A stretch of DNA of 52,315 nucleotides from Girardia tigrina (taxonomy: Eukaryota). The translations under genes and the position numbers were made by a program. Shown piece by piece: positions 5,988 through 30,930 of this stretch. The number at the start of each line of letters is the position of its first letter. Within the stretch, counting starts at the first letter, position 1. The notes below the pieces were generated by a model. That model had not been told where the DNA came from, did no database searches, and was given only the letters and a program-made list of their open reading frames with translations. The stretch is from the NCBI GenBank assembly GCA_001938485.1, contig MQRK01250436.1, forward strand, positions 1 through 52,315, in the 5' to 3' direction.

Positions 5988-6407
5988 AGTGGAAAGTTGA
6001 CACTAATTCATCGATTTTAAGAAAAACATATGGTCAAAATGAAAAGGACGGAGATGGCTGTTTCGGGAAGAAAGTGTTTTTGAACGGTGATTATGGTTGT
6101 TTGCAGTTGATTCGTGATAATGGTGTTGAACCATCTGAATGTCAGTTTTCTAAATGAGTCGACTGCTTGATATTTGTATTCAGTTTGGAAAAAGAGGAAA
6201 GCCTAAACGTTCTTTATAAATTTCATGAGCAAATTTTCAAGTTAGGAAACAGCATATTCGGTGTTGAACTTCCATTTATTCTTGGTGGAACACAGTAAGT
6301 GAATCAAATTCTCGAGTCATTGATGATTCCAGAGTCGTAAACTTGCTGCAGATTTAGAAATGAGTGCCTATTATGAAACATGTGCCAATTATGGATTAAA
6401 TGTTGAA
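5988..6407 (+). pseudogene. AGAP: AGAP/centaurin-gamma GTPase-like domain fragment
   Basis: SGKLTLIHRF..GCFGKKVF..LIRD..QFSK*VDCLIFVFSLE..LPFILGGTQ..RVIDDSR..YYETCANYGLNVE parallels the AGAP GTPase-like domain; stops and frameshifts. Confidence 0.85.
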
Positions 6408-6559
6408 ATAAAATATTTTTATAGTCATTTTTAAACATTAATTTGATTTTAATTATTTAAAAATTTACAAAAATAAAGTCAATAAATTTATTTAAAAGTT
6501 GCAATAATAAAAATTAAAATTTTGAATATTAAATCTAAATTTAAATAAATTAGTTTCAG

Positions 6560-6681
6560 ATTATAAGAAATTAAATATTGATAATCCATCTGGTTAGGAG
6601 AGGCAAAATCACAAATCAACATACAACATTTAAACATGCAAACACTACACAAAAACATCCACACATCAAATATTCCTCACA
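6560..6681 (+). repeat. Dispersed repeat family A 3' end (probable LTR end)
   Basis: ATCTGG.TAGGAGA...CAACATAC...ATATTCCTCACA shared with 8290, 16264, 21404 and 40123. Confidence 0.65.
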
Positions 6682-6704
6682 GTTATCACATGGTCAATTT
6701 TCAT

Positions 6705-7010
6705 CGTCAACTCCAAAATCCAACGTTCATGGTCAAAAAGTTCTGTTAGATGTGTGGTTGGGAATGAATGGGATTATTATTTTTGAACTACAGAAACGTG
6801 TTGAAACAGTTACCTCGGATATTTATTGCGCTCAATTGTCACGCCTGATAGAACAAATGTCTTTTAAACTTCCTGCAATAGCAAATGGGGAAAATATGAC
6901 TTTGCAGCACGACAATGCAAGGCCGCAAGTTGTAAAGAACACTCGCAGCAAAATCCAGGAGTAAGGTGGGAAATTCTACCAAATCCACTCTACAGTCTGG
7001 ACATTATTTA
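6705..7010 (+). mobile_element. mariner transposase internal fragment
   Basis: KVLLDVW..GII.FEL..TVTSDIYCAQL..LQHDNARP, followed by a degenerate W..L.HP.YS.D. Confidence 0.85.
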
Positions 7011-8289
7011 ATTATCTTGCAAACTTCTTATGCTAAATTTACTTATTCTTATTTTACTAAAAAGCGATTTCATTTATAATGAGTAATAAAAATAAGAAAG
7101 ATAATCATTTCTGACGAATCCACTCTTTTACTAAAAATATATTTAGGCAAAGAACATTACAAATATTCTATCAGATTTTTATCAATTTGAGTTTTGGAGC
7201 ACGATAGAAAATATAATCAAACTCGTGAATCAAAAAAACCAACGAAGGAAAATCCTCAAAATCGGATTGTCAAAATCAATTACTGCCAGTGGTGGAATTT
7301 CATCCCAAAGCTTGATGAACGAATTCTCAGTGAAGTCATTAAAGTAAGCCCATTTAACACAGTGTATTATTTAAAATTGATTGTCTCACAATTCTTTTAC
7401 GAATTATTCAATTATTTAACAAATCAAATTTTTGTATTACATTCGTTAGTACTAAGAAACCACTCAAAAAAGACCAGAGGAAAAAAATTAATCTTAACGA
7501 ACTCTATGGCAGTCACGTACGGATGTAAAAGAGCATTTCATAAACAATTATTATGACTGACCCTCCTAGGAGTTATTTTATATATTTTTTCTGTAAACTA
7601 AATTAACAAGCAAAGATTGAGGTATATGCCTATCAACACATCTTTGGCAACGATGGTTTGAAAACTGACACTCTATAAACGAGAGAAAGACGAAAAAAAT
7701 GCGATTCCTGATTAAGTTTTAAATCATACTTTCGAAAAGGCGATGAATATGTTGATGTTTAACTTTGATCACATTTATAAGATTCTTGAGAAACTCAATC
7801 AAGTACCCCTTGAAGGGGGACATTATATTCACAAAATGAGAGAACATTAGCTAATCAAGCAAAAATATATAGCGAAATGTTACATATAGATGACATATTT
7901 AATATCAAAGAACGATTATTTAATTTATGTGATTTTGTATAAATATTTTCGTATTTGTAAAATTTTTTAATACATGCCAAACATCTTAATTGAATTTCAT
8001 TTTTGCAAAATTATCTCACGTTAAGAAAAAAATATGTTCTCTGAAAACATTTGTTCAAGGAAAAAAAAGGTAAAATTTTTGTTTTTAAAATGAGTTTAGC
8101 AAATCTAAACACGGTTAAAGAGTATTTAAAACTTATGTTAGTATTTGTTAAATTATTTACATTATGTGAAAACGAAAAAATAGCAGAATTACAATTATTC
8201 CAAAAATACTTTCAAAAAAGAGATTCGAAGCATATCCGAGAATATTGATGACCGTATAAAGGATTTTTAAAACTATTGGATAAACTGTC

Positions 8290-8400
8290 TGCGAGGAATG
8301 TTTTGAATTGTGTGCTGATATTGTGCATGTTGTATGTTTATTGGGATTGTGTCTCTCCTACCCAAATGAATGATTGGCATTTTCTTTGATTCTTACTAAT
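8290..8400 (-). repeat. Repeat family A 3' end
   Basis: TGCGAGGAATG...TGTCTCTCCTACCCAAATG is the reverse complement of family A. Confidence 0.6.
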
Positions 8401-9325
8401 TAAAAATAATTTAATTTAATTTTAAAGTAAAAAGATTTAAAATAATTTTTGAATGTATTATTTATTTTTTAATGTAATTTAAAATTTTAATATATTAATT
8501 TAATTGGTTCTTTTTTTAAAAAATGTTTAGATTTAATTTTAATTAATTAGATTTTTTATAATTAATAAATTTTATTAAAAGATTTTCATTTATTGAAAAA
8601 AATTAGTATAAATTCAGAAAAAAATATTAATCGAGAAAATGTAAAATAGCGAGTCTTTTGAATAATGGCTGTCATAACAATTCTACTTGTGTTGTTAATG
8701 AATGTTTGTGTTCGATTCACATGGGGGGCATATCGAAGTGAACCCAAAAAGAAAAAATTAAAATTCGTCAAAAGTTGCAACTTATGAAGAGTTCAAAATC
8801 AGCAATAAATCGGACAAATTTGTTATTTGGAATTAACTCCAATTCAATTTAAAATTGTGTTTGAATAATGAAAACAGTGATTGATCAAATATTTTGTTTG
8901 TCTTTTGTTAAAAAATGATTAAAATGATAAAAAATTTAAATAAAAAAATATATGTAAAAATGTTAAAAAGCAAAAAAAAGAAAAAGGTTTTTCGAAATTG
9001 TAAAAAAAAACTAATTAAAAAAATGATTCGATTTGTTTTATAGAATAAAATAAAGAAAAATGTGTTAAAAAGCGATTTGTTTAAATAGATTAGTTTTGTT
9101 TATGATTTTTTGGCGTAATTTTAAAATTTGATGAAAAATAAATGCGATTTGTGAAGTGGAATTTTTTTTGTGATATTATTGTTATATTTTCACATATTAT
9201 GGATTTTAAGTGTAATATTGACGATGCTGATTTCTGCTAATGTTTGAGTTTGAGAATTGCATGTTTACATAAAGAGAAAGGACAAATCACAATCATCGAT
9301 CACCACAATTTAAAAAAAAGACTTA

Positions 9326-9936
9326 ATGATTTTCGGCAGCTCTTCATATAGTAAATGCGAAAGTTATAAAGACTACATTACGATATGGAAATCGTCTGTT
9401 TCCGACCAAAATTCTATGGTAAATAAAATCGCTCGAAAAGAATACATTTCCGAAGACGAATCGATGTTACGAGTGACGATCATCGACGATAAAGTGAAAG
9501 ACGACTCAGAACTAATCGTGCTTCTATCGGATTACGTGAGATTATCAAATGAGAAAGATAGTACAAAGGAAATAATCGAAACAGCCAGAGAAGATCGATC
9601 GGAGATTAAAATTAAACGAAATTGAATCGTTCAGGATTTGTGCGTGACGATAGTCGATCGATCGTATCGAAATGAGGAATTTCACGCTCAATCTACCGTA
9701 ATTGATAAGGTTTATGATAAGGAGATTTCAAGTGCGTGACCGCCGATGGTCGAATTTTGTATGAGTTGACGAGTGGGATGTTGGAGTTTGTTGGACCGAG
9801 TCGGGGTCGATTTGCGTGAGTTATGGGTGGTGTGAAGTCAAATGAAGTTGTGATGGTGAAGGAGATTAATGAGGTCCTAGGAGCGGCGACTGTTGTTGTT
9901 AGAGCCGATGATTATGCATCTGATGATGACGAATAG
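9326..9936 (+). pseudogene. GPKOW: GPKOW/Spp2-like C-terminal KOW region
   Basis: *IVQDLCVTIVDRSYRNEEFH..VIDKV..FKCVTADGRILYELTSGMLE..acidic tail SDDDE* parallels GPKOW WLxxDLRVRFVDxxYKGG..CRTDEGRVLEGLREDMLE; internal stops and one frameshift. Confidence 0.75.
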
Positions 9937-10026
9937 AGACTTCAGAACAAAAAAATGAAATCGAGATTGATGAGCGGCAGGCGAATGACGGTAAGATTGG
10001 TTTTTCCGCTCCCTCTCGTCCCGGAA

Positions 10027-10071
10027 GCACTGATTTCCCAACCCCGGGACGCTGCACCCGCTATCGCAACA
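10027..10071 (-). other. Insulin-family A-chain-like motif (exon fragment)
   Basis: Translates CCDSGCSVPGLGNQC = CCx3C[S]x3[L]x3C. Confidence 0.4.
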
Positions 10072-10186: not shown

Positions 10187-11511
10187 TAGTGCGTTCCAAA
10201 AGTCTGTTCGCACCCATAAAAATCATCACTTATACAATTTTTTTAAGTAAAAGGCGATGAAGTGGAAGAAAATATTATATTTACAAATAAAAATGTTATT
10301 TTTAATATTTTGTGTGGTATCCTTTCATCTTGATGATTGAAGACACCCTTCGCGACATTGAATCGACAAGTCGACGACATAAAGAACTTGGTATATTGTA
10401 CCATAACTTTTGTATTTCTATCCACATTTTCTCTGAATACAAAGTATCCATATTATTTATTTTTCTCTTTATAATACCCCTCAAATTCTCAATCGGGTTT
10501 ACATCTGGTGAGTTGGCAGGCCAATCAAGAATATTTATCTTCTTTGTTTTCAAAAAAGACACTGTTGATGCTGATCGATGACAAGGCGCATTGTCTTGCT
10601 GAAATATAAAATTTGGAAGAGGGAATACCAATCATTGCCCTGTAATGTCTATGTTATTGACAATTAGATCTTGATAGTTCTTCGAATTTAAATTTCCGTT
10701 TATCCGTTTTAAGATACCAACACCAAATCTGGAGAAAGATCCCCATACATGAACTTGGGCACCGTGTTGGAGGACCTTCTTAGTACAATTGTGACTAAGC
10801 CTTTCATTGTCAAACGTTCTAACGATTTCGCTACGAGTGTGGCTATATGTGCGGAACATATATTCATCGCTAAAAACTACATTCGATACTTATCGATTTC
10901 CCAATTTTGTTTATCCCGAGCCCATTCAACTCTTCTTTTTCGTTGCTTTCTAATCAATAAAGGCTTGCAAACAGCATAATGACTTTTTAAGCCGTACTTA
11001 ATCAAAATTCTATTCACTGTACTTCGTGATGCATGTATCATTCCAGCTGTATTGAAAGCTCCTGTTATTTTACTTATCGACATGCGCCTATTTTTCAAGC
11101 ATTTACGACGAATAATTCTTTCAGAACGTTTTGGTAATTTTGAAGGTCGTCCACTACGTTTTTTATCTTCATATGTACCTAATGTCTTGAACTTATGTAC
11201 AATTTTTTGAATGCCCCGCTTTNNNNNNNNNNNNNNNNNNNNNNNNNNNNNNNNNNNNNNNNNNNNNNNNNNNNNNNNNNNNNNNNNNNNNNNNNNNNNN
11301 NNNNNNNNNNNNNNNNNNNNNNNNNNNNNNNNNNNNNNNNNNNNNNNNNNNNNNNNNNNNNNNNNNNNNNNNNNNNNNNNNNNNNNCTTGATATTTCAAT
11401 TTTAAATTTACTAAAATTATTTAAATTAAAGCATTTAAACAAATTAAAAAATTTAATAAATAGTATAAATCAAAATTTCAATGGGTGCGAACAGACTTTT
11501 GGAATATAATG
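10187..11511 (-). mobile_element. Tc1 (DD34E) DNA transposon, disrupted transposase
   Basis: TIRs TTCCAAAAGTCTGTTCGCACCCAT at both ends; GRP, FSDE, VWG, QQDNAPCH and WPANSPDVNPIEN motifs; in-frame stops. Confidence 0.95.
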
Positions 11512-11519
11512 TTTTTGGT

Positions 11520-12417: not shown

Positions 12418-12765
12418 TCAATAACATTTTGGTTTTTTTATCAAAATACTGTGTAATCTCATTAGGAGGTTATCAATTTTGTTAATATGTGCACTCAGTT
12501 TCGGAGTCAAATATTTGCTTAAAATATCTTCGCAACCATAAATAATGCCGGATAACGCACCAACTATTATCGGACAATAATTTGAGGGCATTGCGAACGC
12601 CTTGCTTGTCTCCACAGCTTCGGAAAATGAGTTTGTGCTCGAAATGAAGTATATAGAGGCTTTGATAACATCCGTACAGTAACTTCCTCGACTCAGGTTA
12701 GCTCGGGATTCTAAGATAAGACCTTCTTCCAAAGCATTTTTAACCGGAAAAGTAAATTTTACCTT
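12418..12765 (-). pseudogene. ADP-ribosylglycohydrolase-family C-terminal exon
   Basis: GSYCTDVIKASIYFI..SFSEAV..FAMPSNYCPIIVGALSGIIYG..I; candidate AG acceptor just upstream; no upstream exons recognised. Confidence 0.65.
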
Positions 12766-12885: not shown

Positions 12886-12948
12886 GTATCTTTGTATCGT
12901 GTAAAGGACAATAAAAAACTGACTTTTTTCTTTGTTAATGTGGACTGA
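12886..12948 (+). repeat. 63-bp direct repeat, copy 1 (copy 2 at 15102-15165)
   Basis: GTATCTTTGTATCGTGTAAAGGAC...AATGTGGACTGA, one indel between copies. Confidence 0.9.
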
Positions 12949-12949
12949 T

Positions 12950-13608
12950 CGTTCAACAATCTGCCTAGCGAGGCTGCCGCGCTTCGACTTTGGAGTTACT
13001 GAATTCGCTCGGAGACAAATTATTCCGTCGCTAACCTTAAGCTAGCAAAGGTGCTAAAAAGTCCGCCGCAACTCTGCACTGTATAGCTCTCAATCGTCAA
13101 TTGTGGTCCTTAAGAGGACCGTATTTCTTTCGCAATTATTAGAAGCACTTGAGGAATCACCGATGAAATAATCTTGTTGAAACAATTTCCCTAGATTCGA
13201 ATTCAGTACGTAATCGAGAGTGGTACTATTCAATTCAACCATGAAGCTGATCGGCACACACTTTCCATGAATTCCAGAAGTAAAGTAAATATAAATTCTC
13301 TGTAATTGTAAATCACTGTCGCCTTCGTAAACACCAGTGGTCGGTTTGATTCCGTTTTCATTGGTAATTATTTTCTAAAACTTCGTTCCAATACTGTTTC
13401 CACAACTTTGAAATATTCTCATTAATTCATACCATTGATCATGAATGTCTTCACAAATTTTAGTAGGTGCTGAAATCTCGTCAGTTTCTTTGATATGCAA
13501 TCTCTGATCGGGAATCCTTACATGATTATCTTCAAATGTCTTTATAAAATAATCTACATTAAAAATATAGCCCAACGGCAAAGTCATCTGTTCTTTTAAA
13601 TTAGACAT
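12950..13608 (-). pseudogene. TUBB: Divergent beta-tubulin fragment with N-terminal extension
   Basis: [57 protein letters not shown]..ASNN matches beta-tubulin [40 protein letters not shown]; later KVSD and RQIVE remnants. Confidence 0.85.
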
Positions 13609-13752
13609 TCAATGTCAGTTAATGAATATTTTTCTTTAATGAAAAGAAATCGATATCACCAGCAATAATTTTATTCGATATCATAATCATATAACAATAA
13701 TTCGATTAAACAAACGAATTCAATTAACCAATTTTTAAATTCCTAATATATA

Positions 13753-14105
13753 TTAGGGGTACCCAAATGTTATGTCGTTTTTTATTGATTTTTAGAAACA
13801 AAAATAAAACCATATAAAACATTTATTTAATCAGAAAAATAGTCCCCATCGCAATCGATGACCTTTTCCCAACGTGATATAAGTTTTTCTATGCCATTAG
13901 AAAAAAGGATTCGTCCTTGGATTCGAAAAACTTCTCCAGTCCATTTTGGACATCATCCATTGATAGGAATTTTTTACCATGAAGACAATGTTGCAAAGAT
14001 CTAAAGAGATGGTAATCCGAAGGGGCCAAGTCAGGAGAGTATGCCGGATGAGGTAGAACTTCCCATCCCAATTCTTTCAATTTTTGCTGTGTTTTCTTTG
14101 CAGCA
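13753..14105 (-). mobile_element. mariner (DD34D) 3' part and TIR; remainder in gap
   Basis: LGWEVLPHPAYSPDLAPSDYHLFRSLQ; end TTAGGGGTACCCAAAT after TA. Confidence 0.92.
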
Positions 14106-14958
14106 NNNNNNNNNNNNNNNNNNNNNNNNNNNNNNNNNNNNNNNNNNNNNNNNNNNNNNNNNNNNNNNNNNNNNNNNNNNNNNNNNNNNNNNNNNNNNNN
14201 NNNNNNNNNNNNNNNNNNNNNNNNNNNNNNNNNNNNNNNNNNNNNNNNNNNNNNNNNNNNNNNNNNNNNNNNNNNNNNNNNNNNNNNNNNNNNNNNNNNN
14301 NNNNNNNNNNNNNNNNNNNNNNNNNNNNNNNNNNNNNNNNNNNNNNNNNNNNNNNNNNNNNNNNNNNNNNNNNNNNNNNNNNNNNNNNNNNNNNNNNNNN
14401 NNNNNNNNNNNNNNNNNNNNNNNNNNNNNNNNNNNNNNNNNNNNNNNNNNNNNNNNNNNNNNNNNNNNNNNNNNNNNNNNNNNNNNNNNNNNNNNNNNNN
14501 NNNNNNNNNNNNNNNNNNNNNNNNNNNNNNNNNNNNNNNNNNNNNNNNNNNNNNNNNNNNNNNNNNNNNNNNNNNNNNNNNNNNNNNNNNNNNNNNNNNN
14601 NNNNNNNNNNNNNNNNNNNNNNNNNNNNNNNNNNNNNNNNNNNNNNNNNNNNNNNNNNNNNNNNNNNNNNNNNNNNNNNNNNNNNNNNNNNNNNNNNNNN
14701 NNNNNNNNNNNNNNNNNNNNNNNNNNNNNNNNNNNNNNNNNNNNNNNNNNNNNNNNNNNNNNNNNNNNNNNNNNNNNNNNNNNNNNNNNNNNNNNNNNNN
14801 NNNNNNNNNNNNNNNNNNNNNNNNNNNNNNNNNNNNNNNNNNNNNNNNNNNNNNNNNNNNNNNNNNNNNNNNNNNNNNNNNNNNNNNNNNNNNNNNNNNN
14901 NNNNNNNNNNNNNNNNNNNNNNNNNNNNNNNNNNNNNNNNNNNNNNNNNNNNNNNNNN

Positions 14959-14994
<36 letters not shown>
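14959..14994. repeat. (TA)n microsatellite
   Basis: Direct observation. Confidence 0.9.
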
Positions 14995-14997
<3 letters not shown>

Positions 14998-15894
14998 ATA
15001 TAGATGTTATATTAATAATTTTTATTAAAACATTTTTTTGACATAAATGTAATTTTTTATTTTCCAATTTTTAATAAATTTTTTTAATTCATTCTGAAAC
15101 AGTATCTTTGTATCGTGTAAAGGACAATAAAAATACTGACTTTTTTCTTTGTTAATGTGGACTGACAAATATTCTTTATTCATAGGTTTGCTGAATAGTT
15201 TTACTTATTATTATTTCGTATAATGATATGTATATAAGTATATAGTAAATTTAATAATTTAAATTAAGTTAATTAAAGAACAGATAATAAAGTTATTAAA
15301 TATTAAAGAATTAAAAAAATAATTATTAATGTTGAGTCCAATTCAAATTAATTATTATTGAAATCCAGACAGAGAGAGTTGAGGAAGGATGTGATTTTAA
15401 AATCACTTCTTTAATGTGTTAAGATTATTTTTATTTTATGAATTACGCATAAAGAACCAAATTGTGTAACGAATTATTTTGCCAAGTATAAAAGAATTTG
15501 TGATTTAATTAAGATTTAATTGTGAAAGATATCTGATCTGTTTTTATTGACAAACAATATAATTTTTGAAAATGAATTTGATTTTCTCATGATTATTTTG
15601 AATTTCGATTTTTTTAACGCATTATTTGTTGAGGAATTTACCAATTATAAAACAATCTGAATAATTGTTAACAATTTAAAAAATTAATGAACAACCAATT
15701 ATCTAAACAGTAGGTCAAGCAAGAACCGCACAAACACCATGACTCTTCTACCACCGGCCAGTATCTAGGGCGATTGAAGACTGCACCAAACAGATATTAT
15801 GAATAATAACAAAGAAGTGAGTAAAGAGAGATTAGACAATGGTTAATCTAATTAACTAACAGTTAATTTTGATTAGGAATATTTTGATTAATAT

Positions 15895-16227: not shown

Positions 16228-16263
16228 AGGTTAGAATTTAACTTCAATCTTGGTTAACAACAT

Positions 16264-16846
16264 TGTGACAATTATTATGAGAACATTTATTAATATCAAA
16301 ATTAGAGTCATCATAACTCTCGGAAGATCGTTCACAGTTTGACATTATTCTAATAATTTTTTATTTCTGTCTTTATAATAATGATTATTCGAACAATTTT
16401 TATAGTTATTTAAAATTAAAAATTTTAACCATTTCGTTATAAGTACTCGAATTAAATAAAAATATTTTATAAAATTGTAAAAATTAATTTAAATTTAAAT
16501 TTCATCATATTAAATTATGTAGACACAGATATATTGTAACCTGTATTATAAATTTTTCTAAACTGATAGAAATATCTTTTAATTAAAATATTTAAATTTG
16601 ACTAATTTATTTTATATCTATTTAAATACTTTCCTTTTTTAAAAATATTACATTTTATTTTAATTGCTCATTTAAAAAATTTAAACTTTTCAGATTATTA
16701 TTATTTTGTTATTATTATTTTAATTATATTCGAATAGTCAATTACTGTAAATACAAAAATACTAATCTGAGTGGGAGAATCACCATTCTAAGTTCAACAT
16801 ACTTAAATCAACATACACATTCATACAATTTAAAATATTTCTCATA
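16264..16846 (+). repeat. Repeat family A, longer copy (probable solo LTR)
   Basis: Begins TGTGA; colinear with 21404-21869 (GAGTCAT.AT.ACTCTC, ATGATTATTCGAACAATTTTT, CGAATAGTCAAT, GGGAGAATCACCATTCTAA). Confidence 0.65.
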
Positions 16847-19155: not shown

Positions 19156-20330
19156 CAGGGTGCGGCAGCTATTTGAGAACACGTAATATAGACACCATAT
19201 CTTTTTGTGTGTTAGAATTACATAATTTTATTTTTACTGGTAGACATGGCAGAAGCTACTCTTACGAATGAAATGAAAAGGCATGCAGTTATTGTGTCAT
19301 TAGCTGCANNNNNNNNNNNNNNNNNNNNNNNNNNNNNNNNNNNNNNNNNNNNNNNNNNNNNNNNNNNNNNNNNNNNNNNNNNNNNNNNNNNNNNNNNNNN
19401 NNNNNNNNNNNNNNNNNNNNNNNNNNNNNNNNNNNNNNNNNNNNNNNNNNNNNNNNNNNNNNNNNNNNNNNNNNNNNNNNNNNNNNNNNNNNNNNNNNNN
19501 NNNNNNNNNNNNNNNNNNNNNNNNNNNNNNNNNNNNNNNNNNNNNNNNNNNNNNNNNNNNNNNNNNNNNNNNNNNNNNNNNNNNNNNNNNNNNNNNNNNN
19601 NNNNNNNNNNNNNNNNNNNNNNNNNNNNNNNNNNNNNNNNNNNNNNNNNNNNNNNNNNNNNNNNNNNNNNNNNNNNNNNNNNNNNNNNNNNNNNNNNNNN
19701 NNNNNNNNNNNNNNNNNNNNNNNNNNNNNNNNNNNNNNNNNNNNNNNNNNNNNNNNNNNNNNNNNNNNNNNNNNNNNNNNNNNNNNNNNNNNNNNNNNNN
19801 NNNNNNNNNNNNNNNNNNNNNNNNNNNNNNNNNNNNNNNNNNNNNNNNNNNNNNNNNNNNNNNNNNNNNNNNNNNNNNNNNNNNNNNNNNNNNNNNNNNN
19901 NNNNNNNNNNNNNNNNNNNNNNNNNNNNNNNNNNNNNNNNNNNNNNNNNNNNNNNNNNNNNNNNNNNNNNNNNNNNNNNNNNNNNNNNNNNNNNNNNNNN
20001 NNNNNNNNNNNNNNNNNNNNNNNNNNNNNNNNNNNNNNNNNNNNNNNNNNNNNNNNNNNNNNNNNNNNNNNNNNNNNNNNNNNNNNNNNNNNNNNNNNNN
20101 NNNNNNNNNNNNNNNNNNNNNNNNNNNNNNNNNNNNNNNNNNNNNNNNNNNNNNNNNNNNNNNNNNNNNNNNNNNNNNNNNNNNNNNNNNNNNNNNNNNN
20201 NNNNNNNNNNNNNNNNNNNTGTAGAGGCCGTTATTGCCGCTAATGGCGGTTTCATTGAATGATGTAGTCCTTTATGTACGTGTTAATATATGTAAAATTT
20301 TAAATTGTAATAAATGTTATTTTTCTGTTG
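19156..20330 (+). mobile_element. Tc1/mariner superfamily element, probably DD37D (maT); mostly gap
   Basis: TA|CAGGGTGCGGC left end; ORF start MAEATLTNEMKRHAVIVSL; C-terminus VEAVIAANGGFIE*; right TIR absent. Confidence 0.7.
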
Positions 20331-20334
20331 TATA

Positions 20335-20585
20335 TTTAAAAATTATTGGGAGAGAGTGACATGTGAAGCGTTATATATTAGATCTTTGATCCTAAAATTA
20401 ACGTTCAAACTGCACTCTCTACAACTTTGTTGAGAGTTTTTTAATGATGTAATGATTACGTATTGATTGCATAATCATTAACTGCACTATATAAGTAAAT
20501 TTCGTTTGAAAAATCATTTGTTCTGACGATGACGGTTAAACCGTCGAAATTAATAAACGTTTTTAATTGGCTTTCAAGTTTTGAT
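20335..20585 (+). mobile_element. Penelope-like 3' end (GIY-YIG C-terminus plus pLTR)
   Basis: YWERVTCEALYIRS..DPKINVQ (frameshifted), then a hammerhead-like core. Confidence 0.8.
20523..20570 (+). ncRNA. Hammerhead ribozyme-like core
   Basis: CUGACGA-U-GACGGU/ACCGUC-GAAA, then a palindromic stem III AUUAAUAAAC/GUUUUUAAU; stem I weak. Confidence 0.55.
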
Positions 20586-21403
20586 TTTAATAACTTGCCA
20601 ATTTTATTTCAATTTATTCACAATTTCTTTTTATTATTTACAATTTTTAAAATTTAATTTATTTATTTTATTTTCTTCCATTTAAACTTTATTTAATTAT
20701 TTAAAATTTTTGTACTATTTATTTTACCTAATTATTTATTTAATTACTATTTATTTATTATTTTTTTCTCCAATATTAGCAAATATTTGGTCAATCCATA
20801 TCTTATTTCTTCTCCAATTGATGTTGCTAGTGCTTCATAAATGTTATAAAAGTTAAATAAATAATTGCAAGAGTCATGATATATTATAATAAATTTCAAT
20901 TAATAATAATTATAGACAACAATAATAATTATAGAAAACAAATATAAAAAACTAATTAAAATATTGAAAAATAACATTAAAACTACCTAAAAGTTATAAA
21001 AGAGAAATTGGCTTTCTTCTGTTGTTTGATTTTGATATTAACGAAGAAATGTTTCTAAACGATTGTACCAAGAAATTTTCCAATTAAAATCAATCTAAAA
21101 CAAACAATCCTATTCAGAACTAAAGAAGTCATTTTCCAGTTGAAATATGATTTACCACGTTGCAGAAACCGTATCTTTTAAAACGAAGAAGAAAACGAAT
21201 TTTATTTTGCATCCGATCTTCTAATTTCACTCGATTATCCACAGGAATCCGATCATAGTCAATCATTTTCATATTATTTTTCAGAAACAAAACTCTTTTA
21301 TTCGACACCTTATTCTGATTAAATATTGAATGAAACTCATCAAATGGATTATAATGATTATCTATAATGATCCATATTTATCAATTTAAATGCCTCTATG
21401 ATA

Positions 21404-21869
21404 TAGTGAGGCATTACTGAGTCATTATGACTCTCAGAAAGTCTTTCATCGTTTGTCATCATTCTAATTGGTTTTCTTATTTCTATTTTTAATCATGATT
21501 ATTCGAACAATTTTTCTTAAGTCATTTTTTAAAATATTTAACTTCTAAAAATTATTAATTAAAAATAATAATTTTTAACATTTCTCAATAAATCCCAAAA
21601 TAATAAAAATGTCATCAAATTATTATAAATGCATTTAATTTAAATTCTACTAAAAATATTAAACTTAATTTTAATTATTACATTAAAAATATGAACTTTA
21701 TAAAATGATTATTTTAATTATGTTCGAATAGTCAATCACTTTAAATTTACATAAAAAAATACCAATTTCCATCTGGGTGGGAGAATCACCATTCTAAATT
21801 CAACATACTTAAATCAACATTCATCATCCATACATTTACACATTCAAACAATTTAAAATATTCCTCACA
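21404..21869 (+). repeat. Repeat family A (probable solo LTR)
   Basis: Termini GTGAGG...CCTCACA are inverted-complementary; colinear with the 16264 copy. Confidence 0.65.
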
Positions 21870-24589
21870 ATAATGATTACATAAATATTGCTTAGGTATA
21901 GAAATGTAAAAATATCATTGTAAGTTTAGTCTGAAGATGACGGTTGATAAATCAAAATAAATAACAATAAATAAGTGTATTGAAAAGTATTTATCTTCAA
22001 ATAAAACTTAGTATTACAGCATTATATTTTTTATGTAGAGAAATAGAAGAAAACTAAATGGGAAATAAAATGGTCTGACTAAAGTCGTTTCTTATTAAGC
22101 GACATAATAAAAAAGAGATAATAAAATATGATATCAATCATAGAGGTACTTTGTGGATAGAAATTAATCAAATGTGAAATGGAAATGTCATTTCGATATT
22201 TGATGAATTTTTGGTTGATAAATCAGGCAAAATTAATTAAGGAGGAATAGAAGAACAAATCGATCAGATATTAAAATTCAATTAACAAATCCTCTAAAAA
22301 TTAATTTTGTACTTAAAAATTAATAAAATAATAATTTCTCTTTTTCTAATTATTAAAAATTTTTTTCTTCATTAAAAAATAAATAAAATATATTTTATTA
22401 TTTAATCAAAATCAAGTTTTATAAAAAATTCAATAAAATTTAATTACAGATTAATTTATTTTTCATCGAATTTATTGATTTATAAATATTTTTTATTAAT
22501 TTAAAAGTAATTAATTTTTGTTTAAAACTAAATTATGGGGAAAAATTAATTTGTGAATAAATAAAAAAATATTTTTTTTAATATTTAAAACAGAATGTTT
22601 CTTTAAATATATGTTATTACAATAATTAATAATTTTTTAAATTCAAGCTACTAATTTATCATATTTTATTGTACAATTTTATTTATAATATTTTAAATTA
22701 AATTTATTTATTATATTATTTTATATTATATTTTATATATAAGATTAAATTGCAAATAAAACTAATCTAAAAAATATAAAACGAAAATATTATTTTCTTG
22801 AAAAAGTAATATTTAAGTAGATTAAAATTATTTTTATTAATAATTCAATTACTTTAACCATTTATGAATGGAAATATTCAGAGCATTCAGACTGGAAAAT
22901 ATATTGTTTTATTTACATAAAAAATAATAAAGTATTTAATTTAACTATTCCATTATAATTAGTTAAATTGAAAAAAAATAGAAATTTTTTTTGGTCTTTT
23001 AAAAAAAATTAAATAAATTTAGTGGCTAAATGTGCTGCAATTAAAAGAAAAATTAAATTTGTATTTTAAGGGGTCTGTACCTAGGTACGGAGAGGGACCC
23101 ATATGCACTGGAAAATTTAGAATTCTGACCTTATTTTCTATTCTTAAATTTAACATAAATAATATTTATAATTATAACTATGGACTGGGGTTTCAAGGAT
23201 TATTTTATATAAAAATAATCTGTTATCAGACTTTTATCATACATTTAAAACTTTGAAAAATCATATATTAAAAAAACTGTCTTTTTAAATTTATTAATTT
23301 AATTTATTATATCTTACAAATAAATCGCGAATCGAAATTTTATTTCTTATTGTAAAAAATGTAATGTTTCAAATTATCAGTTTTAAATAAATAGCAAAAT
23401 AATAATGGAAAATTGTGCCTATTAAAAATAGCTTTTTATATAAAAAATTCTCAATTTTGTCCATTAATTGCGCCAGAAACCGTTTTTTATAATATAAAGG
23501 AAAACTCTAACTGAGACCTCAGTTATTAAATATTTCCTAATTACTTTGTATAAAAAATAATTTATTTATATATAAATATAATCAGTGTATTCAAAATAAA
23601 ATAATTGATTATAAAAACTTTTTATGTACAATATCCAATTTTATACACAATACCAAATACTTTTTATTGCTGAAATAATATTTTTCAATTTCTATTTCTC
23701 TGTTACATTCTTCATCCTGTAAAGTTTTTACAAAAGAAAAGATTTGGAACTGCTGCAAATTAAACGAAAAGTTAAGGGAATTTGACTTATAATTAATTAA
23801 GAAATTATTGCAAAAATGTAATACAAATGTTATTGAAAGAAGCATAGTGAGATTCTTCAGAGTTTGACTTTGATTAATAAAGATTTGGAAGGCTTTCTGA
23901 AATAAAATTTTTAGACAAATTGAATTATTCTATCATCGAAATCATTCTTGGTATGAAAGGGTTCGTTCTTGAAAGGTTTTCCAAATGAGAGGCAATCAAA
24001 TTATAATTCTAAAGGAAGTATAACTACATTTGAAATTAGTGGACCTTAATCGTATAAATTAAAATTGTACTTATATAAATAATTAACATTTTACCATTCA
24101 ACAATTGAAGATTTTTTTACCTCAAGAATATAGATAAAGGTCGACATAAATATCAAAATAAGGAACAAAAACGATATATACAAAGCAAGAAATACGTTCC
24201 GCAGTATAAGACGATTTAAATTGTTTTATTATGTTTATTATTATTTGCTATCGTTATTATATCAAATCCCGATCAGATCAACAATTATTTTCTGCTAGAT
24301 TCAAATCGACATTATTGTGAAGATCTTTAAATGACAATCTATGATAATTTATTTGCTTTCTTTATATATATATATGTGTGTGTATGCAAATATGTAAATA
24401 AATAATAAAATTAATAAAAAAGAAGTTAAAAGATTATAAAATAATTAGAATTAAAAACAGAAATTAAAATAAAAAATAATTAAGTTTCAAAACTAAAATT
24501 AAATAATTAATAAAAAATTGAAATAAGGAATTGAATAGATATTGAACTTTGTTCAATTTCTCGTTTTTTTGTTGAGTTATGTAACTCAT

Positions 24590-24978
24590 TGTTTCCATTT
24601 GGCGAGCAGTGGTATATGTAGGAGCCAATGATAAATCGAGAAAATGTATCAAATATGTGTGTGCCGGTTTGATAAGCCGAAAATTTGATGGCCATAATAT
24701 TCAGAGAAAGGGGTCCGCCGAATGAACTATCATGAGACAATAGTAAGTGTTTTCGATCGGATAAACTGCAACACCTGTGCAGCACGTGGAATGTCATAGT
24801 TAGGTACCGCTGTGCTTACAGACCATCCGGGAACGGTATCGTTGAGAGGAATCATCGGACGATAAAGAGAATGGCAGCAAGGACTAAAGGTGATGTGTTT
24901 GATATGGTGTTCAACCACAAAATAACACCAAAAAACGAGACGGATGACAAGTCAGCTACCAGTAATGGAACCTATCGG
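24590..24978 (+). mobile_element. Gypsy integrase core (not in ORF track)
   Basis: IFRERGPPNELS*DNSKCFRSDKLQHLCSTWNV..RCAYRPSGNGIVERNHRTIKRMAAR, the D..35..E region. Confidence 0.92.
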
Positions 24979-25026
24979 TGTTTCCGAATTGCCCGAAAGA
25001 AAAGAGCATCTGGACCCATAGAGATG

Positions 25027-25642
25027 CCTTCGGACTCCAGGATACACAAAACGCATTCGATTTCTGATTTATAATATCGATTTTGTTTTCTTTCACACAA
25101 CACAATGAGACTGTATCGTTCAAAACCATTAAAAACGACTCTTTCTCATTTAGATGCCACCGCAAATTGACCAACTGACTCTCGGTATTCGGTTTATATT
25201 CACAAAATTTCGATTCTTCATTCTTCAGCAGCGATCTCTCGACACGGAACAGCCGGACAGTCACCAATAGACAATAATCGGTCACCAAGGCGACCAGCAG
25301 AATCGATCCACCGCAACTGAACTCGATCCAGGCGACACTCAACCGGAATTTGATCGAGAAAATCGGATCGACACTCACGAGTTTGTCTTTCAAGTCGACC
25401 GATTCAACACTCGCTCTCTCATTCGAGGAGATTTTGCAGAAATTCACATCGTTGTTGGTAATCGACACCAATAATCCGGCCCGACAATCGATTGCATTAT
25501 ATCGGATGTTTTTCGTGTATTTAGTCGATGTCGATTTGAATGGATGAAGCGTTTGAAAAACAGCATTTAGCGAATTCGATTTGTCGTTAAATCTTTCGAA
25601 TCTTTCACAGAATACTTTAACCATTTTTGTATCGATTTTCAT
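25027..25642 (-). pseudogene. NUP214: NUP214/Nup159 N-terminal beta-propeller, 3'-truncated
   Basis: About 205 uninterrupted codons with IEFSCGGSILLV, LVNLRWH..FLMVLND..L and FCVSWSPK (Nup214 CWSPKGKQL), then abrupt loss of homology. Confidence 0.75.
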
Positions 25643-25896
25643 ATTGATTGATTCCCATTTCGCTAAAAAAACCAATCTTATTAGAATAATTCTCTATTCG
25701 CCGATCACACAGAAACACTGCGCCGTTTATTTGATTATTTCTATTCAAATTTCGATTTAAAATCGATTCGAGTTTGATAATATCGACGAGAAGACTCAGC
25801 GCATCGAAAATCGTATCATTCAATGTTTTTATAATTTTAATATTTGCGGTCTTTTTTAACATCGCGATTAACACAATTCAGTATCCAGAAAAGAAA

Positions 25897-26302
25897 TTCA
25901 CTTTTTTTAATCAATTGAAAACGATAACGTCACGTATCAAATTTACTTTCATCAATAATCAAAACTCTGTCGTATTTACAGGTCATTCAATTCAACACAA
26001 CAAAACAAAACTCAAGGTCATTTTTTTGAGTTTTAAATTATCAAAAATATCATTTTTCAATCTCAAAATAAAATATTACAATTAAACTGGATTTTTTTTC
26101 ACTTTTTTTAATCAATTGAAAACGATAACGTCACGTATCGAATTTACTTTCATCAATAATCAAAACTCTGTCGTATTTACAGGTCATTCAATTCAACACA
26201 ACAAAACAAAACTCAAGGTCATTTTTTTGAGTTTTAAATTATCAAAAATATCATTTTTCAATCTCAAAATAAAATATTACAATTAAACTGGATTTTTTTT
26301 CA
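25897..26302 (+). repeat. 201-bp tandem duplication
   Basis: Two copies starting 25897 and 26098, one substitution seen. Confidence 0.92.
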
Positions 26303-26438
26303 AGAATGGAACGATTTTTCCCCTTTTTAATTACAATTATCACAATAATTTTATAAATATATATATAAAGATTTTTTCTACTATACTTTTAACAACAAAA
26401 AAATTAAATATATACAAATATTCGATCAATTCGTAACA

Positions 26439-26812
26439 ATCGGTACGATTGGCGATTCCCGATGGTTAAGCCGGAAAAAGGATGCTATGATGAGAGTGAG
26501 TTCAAGGTTTGTGAGCAGGTTTATGTGAAGCCCGGTGGGACACGGTGTACAGCTCGATGGCAGAGAGGAGTTGTGTCGCGGTTTCACTCCGGATCGTCGG
26601 TTGACTCGGACGGTATTCCAAGGAATATTGCAGACTTGAGGCATGTGTCGCCTGAGCGATGACTTACGGAGATTGGAGAGGCATCGGAGCGGGAAGACGA
26701 GTTGGTGTCTGTGGCGAAGAGATGTACTTCGACGGCACCGCGGACGGTTCGAGTAATCCTGCCTTACTGGGTAGACCACTATGTAACATGTGATGTGGAT
26801 ATCACGGGGGCG
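26439..26812 (+). mobile_element. Gypsy integrase C-terminus and polypurine tract
   Basis: RYDWRFP..FKVCEQVYVKPGGTRCTARWQRGVV..DGIPRNIADLR; purine run CACGGGGGCG then TGTGATAA (3' LTR start at 26813). Confidence 0.8.
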
Positions 26813-28522
26813 TGTGATAACGAAATTAATGATAAATAACATTGTTGTTTTAATAAACTAAACTTTGGCGCGAGTGGCGAATCGAGTATATTTTGGCAAA
26901 TAAATTTTTCTCCTATCGTTATTTTTAGTTTTAACCACATTTTCAATATCCCAATATGTAGCAATCAAACGAAAAAAAACTGAGCAATAAAATGTCAAGT
27001 AATTGTCAGATTATAACTATTTGAATTTATTGTAATCATACTAACATAATACATTCTTGACAACATATTTATATGAATTAATATATAATTTTAGAGAAAG
27101 AAATAAATGACCCTAAAACAAATCTGTTTGAAAAAATACCTAAAAATCAAGGTAATATTAAAACATAATTAAAATCTTTTATTAATTATTATTTTGAAAT
27201 AGCAATTGCTAATTGAATAAATAAAATTTTATTGATTTAATATTTAATATATTTCTTTTCTTTAATATTTTAAATGAATATTCTATATCCGTGCTTTCTG
27301 AGCTTCTACAAAAACATTTCTTTCTGTTTTACTCGACAAATAAGAACTATTTGATTTTATGTCTTTTTTGTTCTTTGTCAATAAATCATAGTTGCAAAAA
27401 TAATTAAATTTAATTAACTACGACTGATTAAATTTAAATAAATCATTTTTATAATTTTTACAGAAATTTGAAATATTTTGTAAAATAATTTTTTACTAAA
27501 AATTATTAGTTTATTTTAGGACTTCGAGTATACCAGGATGCTGGTGTAATGAAGTGGAGATGTGATAACGCCATTCAAGAGGTGAGTTCGGTGTCAACAA
27601 AAAGGCAGGTGTTCTAGTGGTGTGGGCAAATTTAAATTTAAATATATTTATTTTAAACATTTGAAATTTTGCTTTTAATATAAATTTTATGAATATTTTT
27701 ATATAATCGATGGAGCGGAAAGTAAAAGGATTGGTCTAACATATGCCGAGATGATATAAAGTAAAAATAACTTTAAATAAATTAAATTTAAAAAAAAATA
27801 ATAAACTAAATACTTTTGTTTATTTTGAATATTTTGTGTCAAAATTTTTTTTTCAATGTGGGAGTGCTCTTTTTGATTACACGTTATTTGAACTTTTCAC
27901 TGTCATATTGGCCGTTTTCAGTTGATCAATTTGAATAATTATAAATACAAAACTGTTCTTGATTTGTTGCTGTTGAAATCTGGTAATGAAGAATTGTCAT
28001 TGAATTTTGAAGAAATCGTTTTATTTTGTGTGTGAATTTGTGTATGTGTGTGTAAAAATTACGTTGTAATATGTGCTTGTGTGTGTATTTTGGTGTATTT
28101 GTGTTTCTTTGTTTTGTTACTATTTTTTGTTTGAGTTTTGCTTTGATTATTTAAATTAATGTGAACGTGATCGAATGTTTTGTCACAATTAACCACCTCA
28201 GACCTGAATTTTCATTTTTGGTTGAAAAAATATTTTTCAAAATTTTCTTGTAAAATATAAAAATGAAAAGCTAAACATATTTTTTGGATTTTTAAAACTT
28301 TATTTTTGCAAAATACAGAAAGTATATTATAATGTACAATAGGGCACGAGTAGCTTTGAAAATGACTTTGAAAGAAGGATTGAAATTTATGTACATTACA
28401 ATGTGCACTGGGTTTGAGGAGGTTAAAAAATGATAATCAAATGAAAAACGGAGGTCATTTGAATAAAATAAAATTTTTGAAAGTCCTCTTTTCGCTAATT
28501 TGAATTAATAATATAATTTTCA

Positions 28523-28640
28523 ATGACTGATGATATTGAGATAATAAAATGCCAAACTTTTGAAATGGAACTGAGAAATATGGACTTGAATTATATCAGA
28601 GGAAGCGCTTTCGGAATGGTGACTTCAGTATATGATTATG
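28523..28640 (+). pseudogene. ERK: ERK-type MAP kinase first-exon fragment
   Basis: MTDDIEIIKCQTFEMELRNMDLNYIRGSAFGMVTSVYD versus ERK [33 protein letters not shown]; G-loop degraded; no downstream exons seen. Confidence 0.75.
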
Positions 28641-28856
28641 GTATATTCTATGCCAAAGAACAGATTTAGTGTTTAGTAATATATATACCCTTTTAAATAC
28701 AATGACAAAAGAAAAATTTTATTTACCATTAATTCATCAAACATGATTTAATATGGATATCCACAGGGTAAATATGATCCTGGTTCTTAATAACTTGTTA
28801 AATTGTATACGGTTGGAAACAACGTTTGGTTAGCCGTAAATTTTATATTTAGTCTG

Positions 28857-29150
28857 CAGTGGTGTGCGGTCCATCGAAGGAAGGGAAGCAACGTTGAATC
28901 AGATATGATCTAAGTGAGTCTTGCTACTGAAAACGATAAAAGTATTGCTTACTTCGAACCAACAAAACATAGAATGAACGTTCATGAAAGCGGATATAAA
29001 AAGTTATTGAATAATTTTTTTATTTTTAATGACCTTTTGTGAAAATTTTATTAAATATTTATGTACATGGGCAATAAAAATTCAAAAAATTATTTTCTTA
29101 TGTCTTTGGTTTATTGCTTCCCCTATATCAAAATCCAGCGCCAGCCACTG
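28857..29150. mobile_element. hAT-type MITE
   Basis: CAGTGG...CCACTG termini; 8-bp flanks TTAGTCTG / TTAGACTA (6 of 8 match). Confidence 0.7.
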
Positions 29151-29835
29151 TTAGACTAAATAAAATATCTATGATAAAATATTTGGTCAAATAAGTTTTC
29201 ACACATTTATGCATAAAATATTTGACAAAATATTATTCTAAATTATATCATGACTTTCAATCGAATCGACTTTGGAACTATGAGGGGTTAGTTTTAAGTT
29301 TCGCCAAAATAGTTTATTGTTTTTTTAATTTGAAAATTTATAAATAATTATAAATTAATTTGAAAATTAATAAATACTTATTTAAAATATTTTTACAGTA
29401 ATAACAATTAACATATTTTAATAAAAGTAATAGAATAAGCTAAATAAATTTTAATTAACGGATTAATATTTTCAGAAATAATTTTTTTAATAAAATGGTT
29501 ATTGTAAATTTAAATTAAATAGTTTTATGATTAAGTTTTGTAAGAATGTGAAAAATTTGGTTACATTAAAAATTTATAAATTTTTTGTAAGAAAATGTAA
29601 ATTATTTAAGGGTAAAATTTTTGTATATTTTCAAAATTTAATCGAAAAAAATTAATGAACTAATTTTGGGCGAAATAATTGAATTAATAAGAAATTTGTT
29701 TAAGTATATGAATTGTAAATAGTAATAAATTTTTGGTGGTGTTAAATTATGGCTTTAGAATGTGATAATACTGAAAGTGGCATAAACGCTACTTACAGGA
29801 ACATTTATTATATTCATTACTGTTTAAAATGTTAC

Positions 29836-30292
29836 TTATTGAAACAACCTTTTCCACAGAGAAATATTTGACTCTTTGGGTACATCCATTGAATGAATTA
29901 GATGCCGGAAATAATTGAAGAGGTTCAATGAGATTGAATTCATTGTAAATGAGTAGGGACAGTCAGGATGACTTTCCCAAGAAATTAACGACCGCACACA
30001 AAACTTGTTTAAAACTACAAGAAAGCTATTATGAAATGGTATAACATCATCTCTAGAATAGTACGTTGTCACACCATTTCAATAAAAAAAGAAATTATTT
30101 CCGAATCGTAAAAATTATAGCATTCAGCTGCAAACCAAATAGGAAATTTTTGACATACTTAATCAGATTGTAGTGTTCACTAAATCGTATCATCAGCAGC
30201 AACCAATTAAGAGTTTTTTTCCACGTGATATTTAACTGAATTTTTGAATTTTTTTCAATTAATAAAAAAGCCTTAATTGGATTTGCGATCAC
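29836..30292 (-). pseudogene. Unidentified decayed coding-like fragment, head-to-head with the bromodomain fragment
   Basis: Two adjacent protein-like ORFs in different frames; family not recognised. Confidence 0.3.
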
Positions 30293-30583
30293 TGAAATTT
30301 TTGAGCTGGAAAATTCCAGACTTATAATTGATAATTTCTAGATAAAATTTCAAGAAAAAATAACGGACAAAAAAAACAATTTACCGTTAAAAAATTAATT
30401 AACAAAAAATAAAAAATAAACGGAATAACAATGTTCAATTTTGTTTTACTACTGTGTCTAAAATAAAAAATTTTGATTTAGCTTTCTTTTCACCATTTTC
30501 AATATTATTTTCGATTACGACTTTTCGGTTTCTCTAAAGCCGATTTTCGAGTGCAATTCATCGATTAGTAATCAAAAAATAAA

Positions 30584-30930
30584 ATGCTCGTTTCGAATGA
30601 TCGTGTCGAAATCACGAGAAAGCTCGATGAACTTGCCGATAGTTCCGGTCGGCCTCGTCCGGTCGATGATCCTACCAACCGGTTCCAATTCGTAAAAAGG
30701 AAAACCCTTCCGCAACTAATGCGACATAAATATTCCTTTCCGTTTCTCCATCCGGTCGGTCACACGGCGCTCGGCATCCAAGATCATCCGAAAATCGTGC
30801 ACTATCCAATGGATGTCATTTCCATCATAAATCGATTGATCAAGAAATTCTACTACAACACTGATCAGTGCATTTCCAATGTGATACTAGTGCCCCAGAA
30901 TTACTGTATCTTCAATCCGACCGCTGAATC
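30584..30930 (+). pseudogene. BET-family (BRD2/3/4/fsh-like) first bromodomain fragment
   Basis: TNRFQFV..LMRHKYSFPFLHPV..LGIQDHPKIVHYPMDV.SI..RL..FY...QCI......NYCIFN; several conserved residues altered; homology ends after BD1. Confidence 0.85.

What the first reader, a model, noticed from the sequence alone, without database searches (positions are those of the whole stretch)
5988..30930. Archive of short decayed fragments from many unrelated conserved host genes
Seen: within about 25 kb lie pieces (45-660 bp) of AGAP, GPKOW, an insulin-like motif, ADP-ribosylglycohydrolase, beta-tubulin, NUP214, ERK and a BET bromodomain, none complete. Several are 5' ends with upstream DNA (NUP214, ERK, BET, tubulin). 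Two keep apparent neighbours: BET is head-to-head with another fragment, and GPKOW is tail-to-tail with the insulin-like motif. Inference: these look like DNA-level captures from gene-dense loci rather than poly(A) retrocopies. That points to a systematic fragment-capture process (Pack/Helitron/LTR-type transduction or break-repair filler) or a small-RNA-producing or germline-restricted compartment.
Basis: partly seen in the sequence, partly recalled or inferred. Interest (0 to 1): 0.8.

Follow-up and report, generated by a model that had tools for sequence, protein, structure and literature searches.

The report
Gypsy LTRs carrying host mRNA pieces
Most of the gene scraps here are passengers inside repeated ~1-kb mobile units. 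The bromodomain unit is the end repeat (LTR) of a gypsy retrotransposon whose copies carry different host-gene pieces, and two other units hold pieces with their introns removed. These elements likely copy host messenger RNAs into their own end repeats and scatter them through the genome.

Summary
The fragments are mostly real, but this is not a special archive. BET, NUP214, GPKOW, beta-tubulin and AGAP each lie in a dispersed, multi-copy unit of 0.9-1.5 kb; the complete ones run TG...CA, and three in the window have 5-bp target-site duplications. The BET unit is a solo LTR of a Ty3/gypsy family: the same LTR follows pol plus a polypurine tract in one contig and precedes a primer site plus gag in another. 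Its left end has 1,284 exact matches, and the same arms and internal region carry other cargo (midasin-like AAA, ubiquitin-conjugating enzyme, WD40 and more). Against their parent genes, the AGAP and tubulin pieces lack introns exactly, so capture went through spliced mRNA, not DNA. The 'insulin-like motif' is the antisense frame of GPKOW coding sequence. The ADP-ribosylglycohydrolase piece is single-copy and looks like a real last exon. Likely mechanism: reverse-transcriptase template switching puts mRNA pieces, mostly 5' ends, inside the LTR. Caveat: the gypsy link (BET family) and the splicing proof (AGAP, tubulin units) come from different unit families. Known LTR capture places cargo between the LTRs; swapped mRNA cargo within LTRs was not found in my paper searches.

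The parts
30169..31108 (+). Solo LTR of a Ty3/gypsy family: ~160-nt shared left arm, BET 5' UTR plus first 114 codons (30404-30918), right arm. TG...CA ends, TSD CAGAT.
   Evidence: 86% and 88% identical over full length to the 5' LTR in L341 (then primer site, gag) and the 3' LTR in L342 (after pol and PPT).
24979..26438 (-). TG...CA unit with NUP214-like 5' piece, TSD ATCGG, a 201-bp internal tandem duplication, inserted in a gypsy integrase frame. Likely a solo LTR; no PBS or PPT found.
   Evidence: Exact 5-bp TSD in 13 of 14 other copies with both ends in view. The same 3' end also carries an LRR cargo (L231).
8709..10071 (+). TG...CA unit with the GPKOW C-terminal half, TSD GTTTG. The 'insulin-like' reading is its antisense frame.
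   Evidence: A related right end is shared with AGAP copies and with a protein-kinase cargo (L237).
5700..6408 (+). Truncated unit with spliced AGAP exons 3-4-5 (5988-6408). Right end replaced by another repeat; left end runs into the palindromic scaffold joint.
   Evidence: Parent gene G000:C216797 minus strand.
12946..15101 (-). TG...CA unit with a spliced beta-tubulin piece among other unassigned pieces, interrupted by a mariner (~13756-14958, partly N). Flanked here by a 63-bp duplication (12886-12948 / 15102-15165) instead of 5 bp.
   Evidence: Parent G000:C242522 minus strand, intron 1 absent from cargo. 5-bp duplication in 5 of 5 other copies with both ends, allowing 0-3 nt offset and one mismatch.
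28514..28653 (+). ERK-like 5' piece in an older repeat. Copies turn into the same non-ERK sequence at the same point; unit ends and parent not found.
   Evidence: (11 loci printed, the window's own included).
12421..12762 (-). Single-copy open frame from an AG acceptor to a stop: likely the last exon of a resident ADP-ribosylglycohydrolase gene, not cargo. No upstream exons detected in the window.

Best explanation
The BET piece sits inside a solo LTR of a gypsy retrotransposon family whose LTRs keep their two arms but differ in a central host-gene cargo, and the AGAP and tubulin pieces are spliced mRNA copies in similarly built units that are likely solo LTRs of sister families; the cargo likely entered by reverse-transcriptase template switching onto co-packaged host mRNA. 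Inferred steps: after priming, minus-strand synthesis would copy the short right arm, switch to a host mRNA, run towards its 5' end, and jump back to the element's left arm. Both LTRs of the new copy would then carry the piece, the chimeric element would multiply using family enzymes, and LTR-LTR recombination would leave solo LTRs with 5-bp target duplications. Repeated rounds would give the stacked cargos seen. The window is a nest of such independent insertions.
For: LTR identity: 69 distinct contigs among the 100 rows listed (of 102; reversed control 0) have a conserved purine tract plus 4 nt directly before the BET-type left end. Upstream lies a protease-RT-RNaseH-integrase region (Pfam) that is 88-95% identical among 10 loci compared. 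A TGGTGTCAGAAGT-type primer site follows the right end in L344 and, decayed, in L341, whose 5' LTR carries BET. Scale: 1,284 exact matches of the left 18-mer, control 0. Cargo swapping: 69 of 96 left ends in hand had enough sequence; they fall into 11 multi-member cargo clusters plus 24 singletons. Named cargo: AAA_5 (midasin-like), UQ_con, WD40-type propeller. PPT-preceded LTRs carry different cargos. Stacked cargo: 5 of 28 midasin-type ends continue into a second gene piece and a second right end. RNA route: exact intron loss in AGAP and tubulin. TSDs: BET 7 of 8, NUP 13 of 14. Identified cargos read in the left-to-right sense.
Against: The two key proofs come from different families. BET cargo lies within one parent exon, so splicing is untested in the family tied to gypsy. 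No PBS was found beside the NUP, tubulin or GPKOW/AGAP ends. Searches allowed only a 0-2 nt spacer whereas the BET family uses 2-3 nt, and PPTs with the right spacer were not searched for these families. No single element was seen with the same cargo in both LTRs: in L341 and L344 the 3' LTR is cut after 42 and 130 nt. Not all cargo is 5'-anchored (GPKOW, kinase and UQ_con pieces are internal; 4 of 8 AGAP copies aligned, the window's among them, start at exon 3). No clear microhomology at the BET 3' junction. The cluster sample is biased by my searches, and singletons include LTRs broken by later insertions. No expression data were obtained.
Confidence: 0.78

Rival explanations
1. 5' transduction: an element inserted inside a host gene is read from the host promoter, and the spliced host 5' exons are joined to the LTR's right arm at the RNA level before reverse transcription.
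For: Explains spliced, sense, 5'-biased cargo equally well. SVA 5' transduction is a precedent (PMC13317346, passages).
Against: BET and AGAP cargo end mid-exon, not at a splice donor. This would need an exonic insertion for every cargo, and the parents found carry no such element at the breakpoint. Internal cargos (GPKOW, kinase) do not fit.
Confidence: 0.12
2. The NUP214, GPKOW, AGAP and tubulin units are not LTRs but Pack-type non-autonomous DNA transposons (Ginger2/TDD-like TG...CA ends; recalled) that took up cDNA; only the BET family is gypsy.
For: No PBS was found for these four families. The NUP ends show a weak ~20-nt imperfect inverted similarity by eye.
Against: No terminal inverted or direct repeat clearly above shuffled controls in 8 units tested; the one score over the 95% level came from a mis-cut unit. 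They share size, TG...CA ends, 5-bp TSD and the modular arm-plus-cargo build with the proven LTR family. In that family only ~5% of ends have a PPT, so my small samples could miss junctions.
Confidence: 0.15
3. One reading: DNA-level capture from gene-dense loci into a dedicated archive (piRNA cluster or germline-restricted region).
For: At least five cargo units lie within 25 kb; the genome-wide density was not measured.
Against: Exact intron loss. Dispersed copies with private TSDs and flanks. The neighbour pairs are not real. Similar repeats occur in the other contigs fetched.
Confidence: 0.03
4. Assembly chimera of unrelated contigs.
For: Nine multi-base N gaps and a perfect 767-bp palindrome around one gap.
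Against: The BET, NUP and GPKOW units lie in gap-free sequence with their own TSDs and recur with the same ends in many contigs.
Confidence: 0.02

Closest known systems
LTR-mediated retroposition (Tan et al. 2016, PMC5131818; passages read)
   Same: Partial, spliced, poly(A)-less mRNA copies made in LTR elements by template switching; multi-gene chimeras; secondary amplification.
   Different: There the retrocopy replaces part of the internal ORFs between two LTRs, and cases number 15 in Drosophila and a handful in mammals. Here the cargo is inside the LTR, survives as solo LTRs, and one family has >1,200 left ends with at least 11 recurring cargo classes.
Cassandra, Helenus and Ajax TRIMs (PMC10886601; abstract read)
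   Same: Host-gene-derived sequence inside LTRs; 4-5 bp TSDs.
   Different: They hold one fixed small-RNA (5S or tRNA) Pol III promoter in non-autonomous minis. Here the cargo is exchangeable protein-coding mRNA in LTRs attached to gag-pol.
BARE-2 and Veju chimeric LTRs; SVA 5' transduction (PMC13317346; passages)
   Same: Abnormal template switching can put foreign sequence into an LTR; host 5' exons can be carried along.
   Different: The BARE-2 donor is another retrotransposon, and SVA is non-LTR. Neither is an LTR family sampling many host mRNAs.
Pack-MULEs and Helitrons (PMC6431247; passages on Helitron capture)
   Same: Many unrelated gene fragments amplified by a TE.
   Different: Those are DNA-level captures (Pack-MULE TIRs and 9-bp TSDs recalled). 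Here introns are lost and the ends are TG...CA with 5-bp TSDs.
Ty3/gypsy CsRn1-like clade (clade label recalled from motifs, not tested)
   Same: PR-RT-RH-IN order, DUF7041 gag piece, ~4-kb internal region, 4-nt spacer after the PPT.
   Different: LTRs of 0.7-1.7 kb with variable host cargo. Not Burro, whose remnant at 35300-36810 is unrelated to these units.

Membership tests
Ty3/gypsy LTR (BET unit family) | TG...CA ends with short TSD | tested here: met
   Window TSD CAGAT; 7 of 8 other BET copies.
Ty3/gypsy LTR (BET unit family) | Polypurine tract before the 3' LTR | tested here: met
   69 distinct contigs in 100 listed rows, control 0; BET cargo after the PPT in L342.
Ty3/gypsy LTR (BET unit family) | Primer-binding site after the 5' LTR | tested here: met
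   L344, L342, L349 and decayed in L341. Its tRNA-Leu identity is recalled; ARAGORN on the fetched loci printed nothing.
Ty3/gypsy LTR (BET unit family) | pol order PR-RT-RH-IN | tested here: met
   Pfam asp protease, RVT_1, RT_RNaseH, Integrase_H2C2 and rve in that order in L359.
Ty3/gypsy LTR (BET unit family) | Two near-identical LTRs on one element | tested here: inconclusive
   L341 and L344 have both LTR starts, but the 3' LTR is cut after 42 and 130 nt (93-95% identical over that part).
Ty3/gypsy LTR (BET unit family) | RT phylogeny placing it in a named clade | not tested
   No reference RT set was fetched.
Solo LTR (NUP214, GPKOW, AGAP, tubulin units) | TG...CA ends with 5-bp TSD | tested here: met
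   NUP 13 of 14; tubulin 5 of 5 with 0-3 nt offset; GPKOW in the window and 4 copies by eye. AGAP window copy is truncated.
Solo LTR (NUP214, GPKOW, AGAP, tubulin units) | PBS/PPT and pol beside some copies | tested here: inconclusive
   PBS patterns gave 0, 11, 6, 3 and 0 hits with no PBS among them. The spacer was too short in three searches, and PPT was not searched genome-wide.
LTR-mediated retrocopy (Tan 2016) | Intron loss, no poly(A) | tested here: met
   AGAP and tubulin; not testable for BET (single exon).
LTR-mediated retrocopy (Tan 2016) | Cargo replaces internal ORF between two LTRs | tested here: not met
   Cargo lies within the LTR: after the PPT, before the PBS.
LTR-mediated retrocopy (Tan 2016) | Microsimilarity at switch points | tested here: inconclusive
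   No cargo-free ancestral LTR in hand; the BET 3' junction shows none obvious.
Pack-type TIR DNA transposon / Helitron | Terminal inverted repeats | tested here: not met
   Inverted scores within the shuffled range in 8 of 8 units.
Pack-type TIR DNA transposon / Helitron | Introns retained in cargo | tested here: not met
piRNA cluster / germline-restricted region | Small-RNA output or tissue-specific depth | not testable with these tools
   No small-RNA or tissue data were obtained.

The most novel reading that the evidence does not exclude
Several planarian gypsy families routinely rebuild the transcribed part of their LTR from host mRNA 5' ends, so the genome holds thousands of promoter-linked fragments of housekeeping genes: a fossil sample of the stem-cell transcriptome. 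The cargo works for the element as camouflage or hostage, because piRNA/RNAi silencing of the LTR would also hit BET, nucleoporin, tubulin or midasin mRNAs; conversely the LTRs feed small RNAs that tune those genes.
Probability: 0.25. Interest if true: 0.9.

Novelty: new variant of a known kind. Interest (0 to 1): 0.74.

Why it matters
It shifts LTR gene capture from a rare accident between the LTRs to a family-wide, repeated exchange inside the LTR, the part that survives as solo LTRs and carries the promoter. That gives many datable capture junctions for testing how strong-stop transfer picks templates. It predicts many false gene models and RNAi or probe off-targets for essential genes in this kind of genome. 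It also makes testable whether captured host sequence shields a retrotransposon from piRNA silencing in an animal whose stem cells depend on PIWI (recalled).

Tried and rejected
PPT search with a 0-1 nt spacer: 3 hits, about chance. This misled me until the 4-nt spacer was seen. PBS search at the left end in reverse orientation: 57 hits, 15 read, none a PBS. Five midasin-type ends with a shared downstream sequence first looked like an internal region but proved to be a second cargo. Burro as the master: the window's env-protease piece and 5 relatives are short fragments without these LTRs. NUP214 parent not found (family search empty; protein search gave only a cargo-like 398-aa protein and one chimera). 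GPKOW parent not found (G-patch hits were another gene). ERK parent not identified among 11 other loci fetched. ARH: no longer homolog, and a profile of 54 relatives found no upstream exon in the window. Sequencing runs: 9 of 12 rows hold at most 0.23 of the words; nothing was laid, so no evidence on expression. Earlier scan notes: none. Paper searches: (listings); none listed a report of swapped mRNA cargo within LTRs. The original Burro paper was not held, subscription journals and Repbase were not searchable, and no supplements were read; an existing repeat-library annotation cannot be excluded.
Full report
Setting. The window is a 28%-GC scaffold with N gaps from a 1.43-Gb, 255,254-contig animal assembly. 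A fusion-glycoprotein, protease and dUTPase-like piece at 35300-36810 has the domain order described for Burro elements of dugesiid planarians (PMC6431247, passages). I therefore infer a planarian-like host. Tc1, mariner, gypsy and LINE remnants fill much of the rest.

The observation. Seven of the eight named pieces are real gene-like sequence, NUP214 being the weakest. The insulin-like motif is the reverse strand of the GPKOW coding region. The ADP-ribosylglycohydrolase piece is single-copy, open from an AG acceptor to a stop, and a relative's predicted protein starts at the same residue. I read it as a resident last exon, although no upstream exon was detected in the window.

The pieces sit in dispersed units. 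BET: 30169-31108, TG...CA, flanked by CAGAT; other copies align end to end with unrelated flanks and their own 5-bp duplications (7 of 8). NUP214: 24979-26438, flanked by ATCGG, splitting a gypsy integrase frame; 13 of 14 copies have exact duplications. GPKOW: 8709-10071, flanked by GTTTG. Tubulin: 12946-15101 with a mariner inside; 5 of 5 other complete copies have a 5-bp duplication if a 0-3 nt offset is allowed. AGAP is a truncated copy whose relatives end in a motif like the GPKOW right end. ERK lies in an older 29-match repeat with a shared 3' junction but undefined ends. The search tool scores only 40 candidates, so its candidate numbers are not copy numbers.

The arms are shared and the cargo is swapped. 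The first ~150 nt of the BET unit also begin units with other interiors. Its left 18-mer has 1,284 exact matches, reversed control 0. Of 96 such left ends in hand, 69 had enough sequence: 11 multi-member cargo clusters and 24 singletons, in a sample biased by my searches, with singletons including broken copies. Pfam names AAA_5 (midasin-like), UQ_con and a WD40-type propeller. SPEN-like, HSD17B-like and UBE2G2-like starts are recalled identifications. The GPKOW-type right end also carries a protein-kinase piece, and the NUP right end an LRR piece. Five of 28 midasin-type right ends run directly into a second gene piece and a second right end; one of them shows the target duplication around the whole. 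No terminal inverted repeat beat shuffled controls in 8 units.

Capture was through spliced RNA. The AGAP parent (C216797) was found through its ArfGAP domain. Sister copies join five exons and drop introns of about 50 nt, 4.7 kb, 60 nt and 8.3 kb; the window copy joins exons 3-4-5 at 76-93% identity. The beta-tubulin parent (C242522, 88% identity) has a 55-nt GT-AG intron after codon 19 that the window piece lacks exactly. The BET parent (C230377), found through its ET domain, matches the cargo at 80% from ~175 nt before the ATG to codon 114, ending mid-exon, so it gives no intron test. No unit has a poly(A) tail. Most named cargos are 5' ends, but GPKOW, kinase and UQ_con pieces are internal.

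The BET unit is a gypsy LTR. Two copies shared an upstream integrase tail and purine tract with a 4-nt spacer. A targeted search then found this junction in 69 distinct contigs among 100 listed rows of 102. Upstream lies a ~4-kb region with DUF7041, protease, RT, RNase H and integrase, 88-95% identical among ten loci. In L341 an LTR with BET cargo is followed by a decayed primer site and gag; in L342 an LTR with BET cargo follows pol and the purine tract. The window unit is 86% and 88% identical to them over its full 940 nt. PPT-preceded LTRs carry different cargos. So one family, one internal region, many LTR cargos.

Mechanism. Shown: integrase-type ends, LTR status of the BET family, cargo exchange, splicing of AGAP and tubulin cargo, and sense orientation. 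Inferred: template switching during minus-strand strong-stop synthesis, duplication of cargo into both LTRs, solo-LTR formation by recombination, and LTR status of the four other unit families. Two gaps limit confidence. The gypsy link and the splice proof come from different families, and no element was seen with both LTRs intact. PBS searches for the other families were negative, but three allowed too short a spacer.

Comparison. It works like LTR-mediated retroposition (PMC5131818, passages) but fails one of its described features, since the cargo is within the LTR rather than between LTRs. Host sequence in LTRs is known as fixed small-RNA promoters (PMC10886601, abstract) and as TE-TE chimeras such as BARE-2 (PMC13317346, passages). 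A planarian genome comparison mentions gypsy expansion but has no occurrence of 'retrocop' or 'pseudogene' (PMC11410931, passages). Ten searches of the held library listed no report of this arrangement (see Tried and rejected); subscription papers, Repbase and supplements were not seen.

Verdict. It is a new variant of a known kind: gypsy LTRs with exchangeable host-mRNA cargo at genome scale. Interest 0.74. Any function of the cargo, such as camouflage or small-RNA regulation, is untested.

Noticed in passing
window 4361-5894: Perfect 767-bp inverted duplication around a 50-N gap; most likely a scaffolding artefact.
   Followed up: no
window 35300-36810 (-): Fusion-glycoprotein (Pfam Monjiviricetes_fusion E=2e-19), protease and dUTPase-like remnant in Burro order; relatives are ~66% identical, and the 5 fetched are 1-2 kb fragments.
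   Followed up: partly
window 28189-28427: ~240-bp MITE with terminal inverted repeats and TTAA flanks (piggyBac-like, recalled), multi-copy.
   Followed up: partly
window 10188-11504: Tc1-type element with TIRs and a DDE_3 frame, ~95% identical to other copies.
   Followed up: no
window 12886-12948 / 15102-15165: The tubulin unit is flanked by a 63-bp direct duplication instead of 5 bp; unexplained.
   Followed up: no
tubulin units L058, L060, L063: 2-3 extra A's lie between the terminal CA and the target duplication, like the spacer before the PBS in the BET family; possibly unprocessed ends.
   Followed up: no
window 24585-24955 and ~26444-26940: Small gypsy integrase tail with a probable short LTR (by eye), split by the NUP214 unit; no tblastn match to the BET-family pol.
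   Followed up: no
window 16236-16858, 21419-21972, 6406-6685, 8286-8772, 40118-40580, 18936-19308, 20306-20726, 31847-32269: Further abundant unclassified repeats seen in many fetched loci; not checked for cargo.
   Followed up: no
L350, L352 (G000:C230383, C170315): A left arm of ~100-120 nt runs straight into the RNase H-integrase part of the same element, then PPT and 3' LTR: internally deleted derivatives.
   Followed up: no
window 24959-25693 and protein P0001: The NUP214-like frame stays open for 245 aa here and 253 aa in L031; a 398-aa predicted protein 82% identical to it exists in a public assembly. It could be mis-annotated as a gene.
   Followed up: partly
first ~120 nt of BET-type LTRs: Two CCAAT motifs in inverted orientation around a T-rich spacer, promoter-like by eye.
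   Followed up: no
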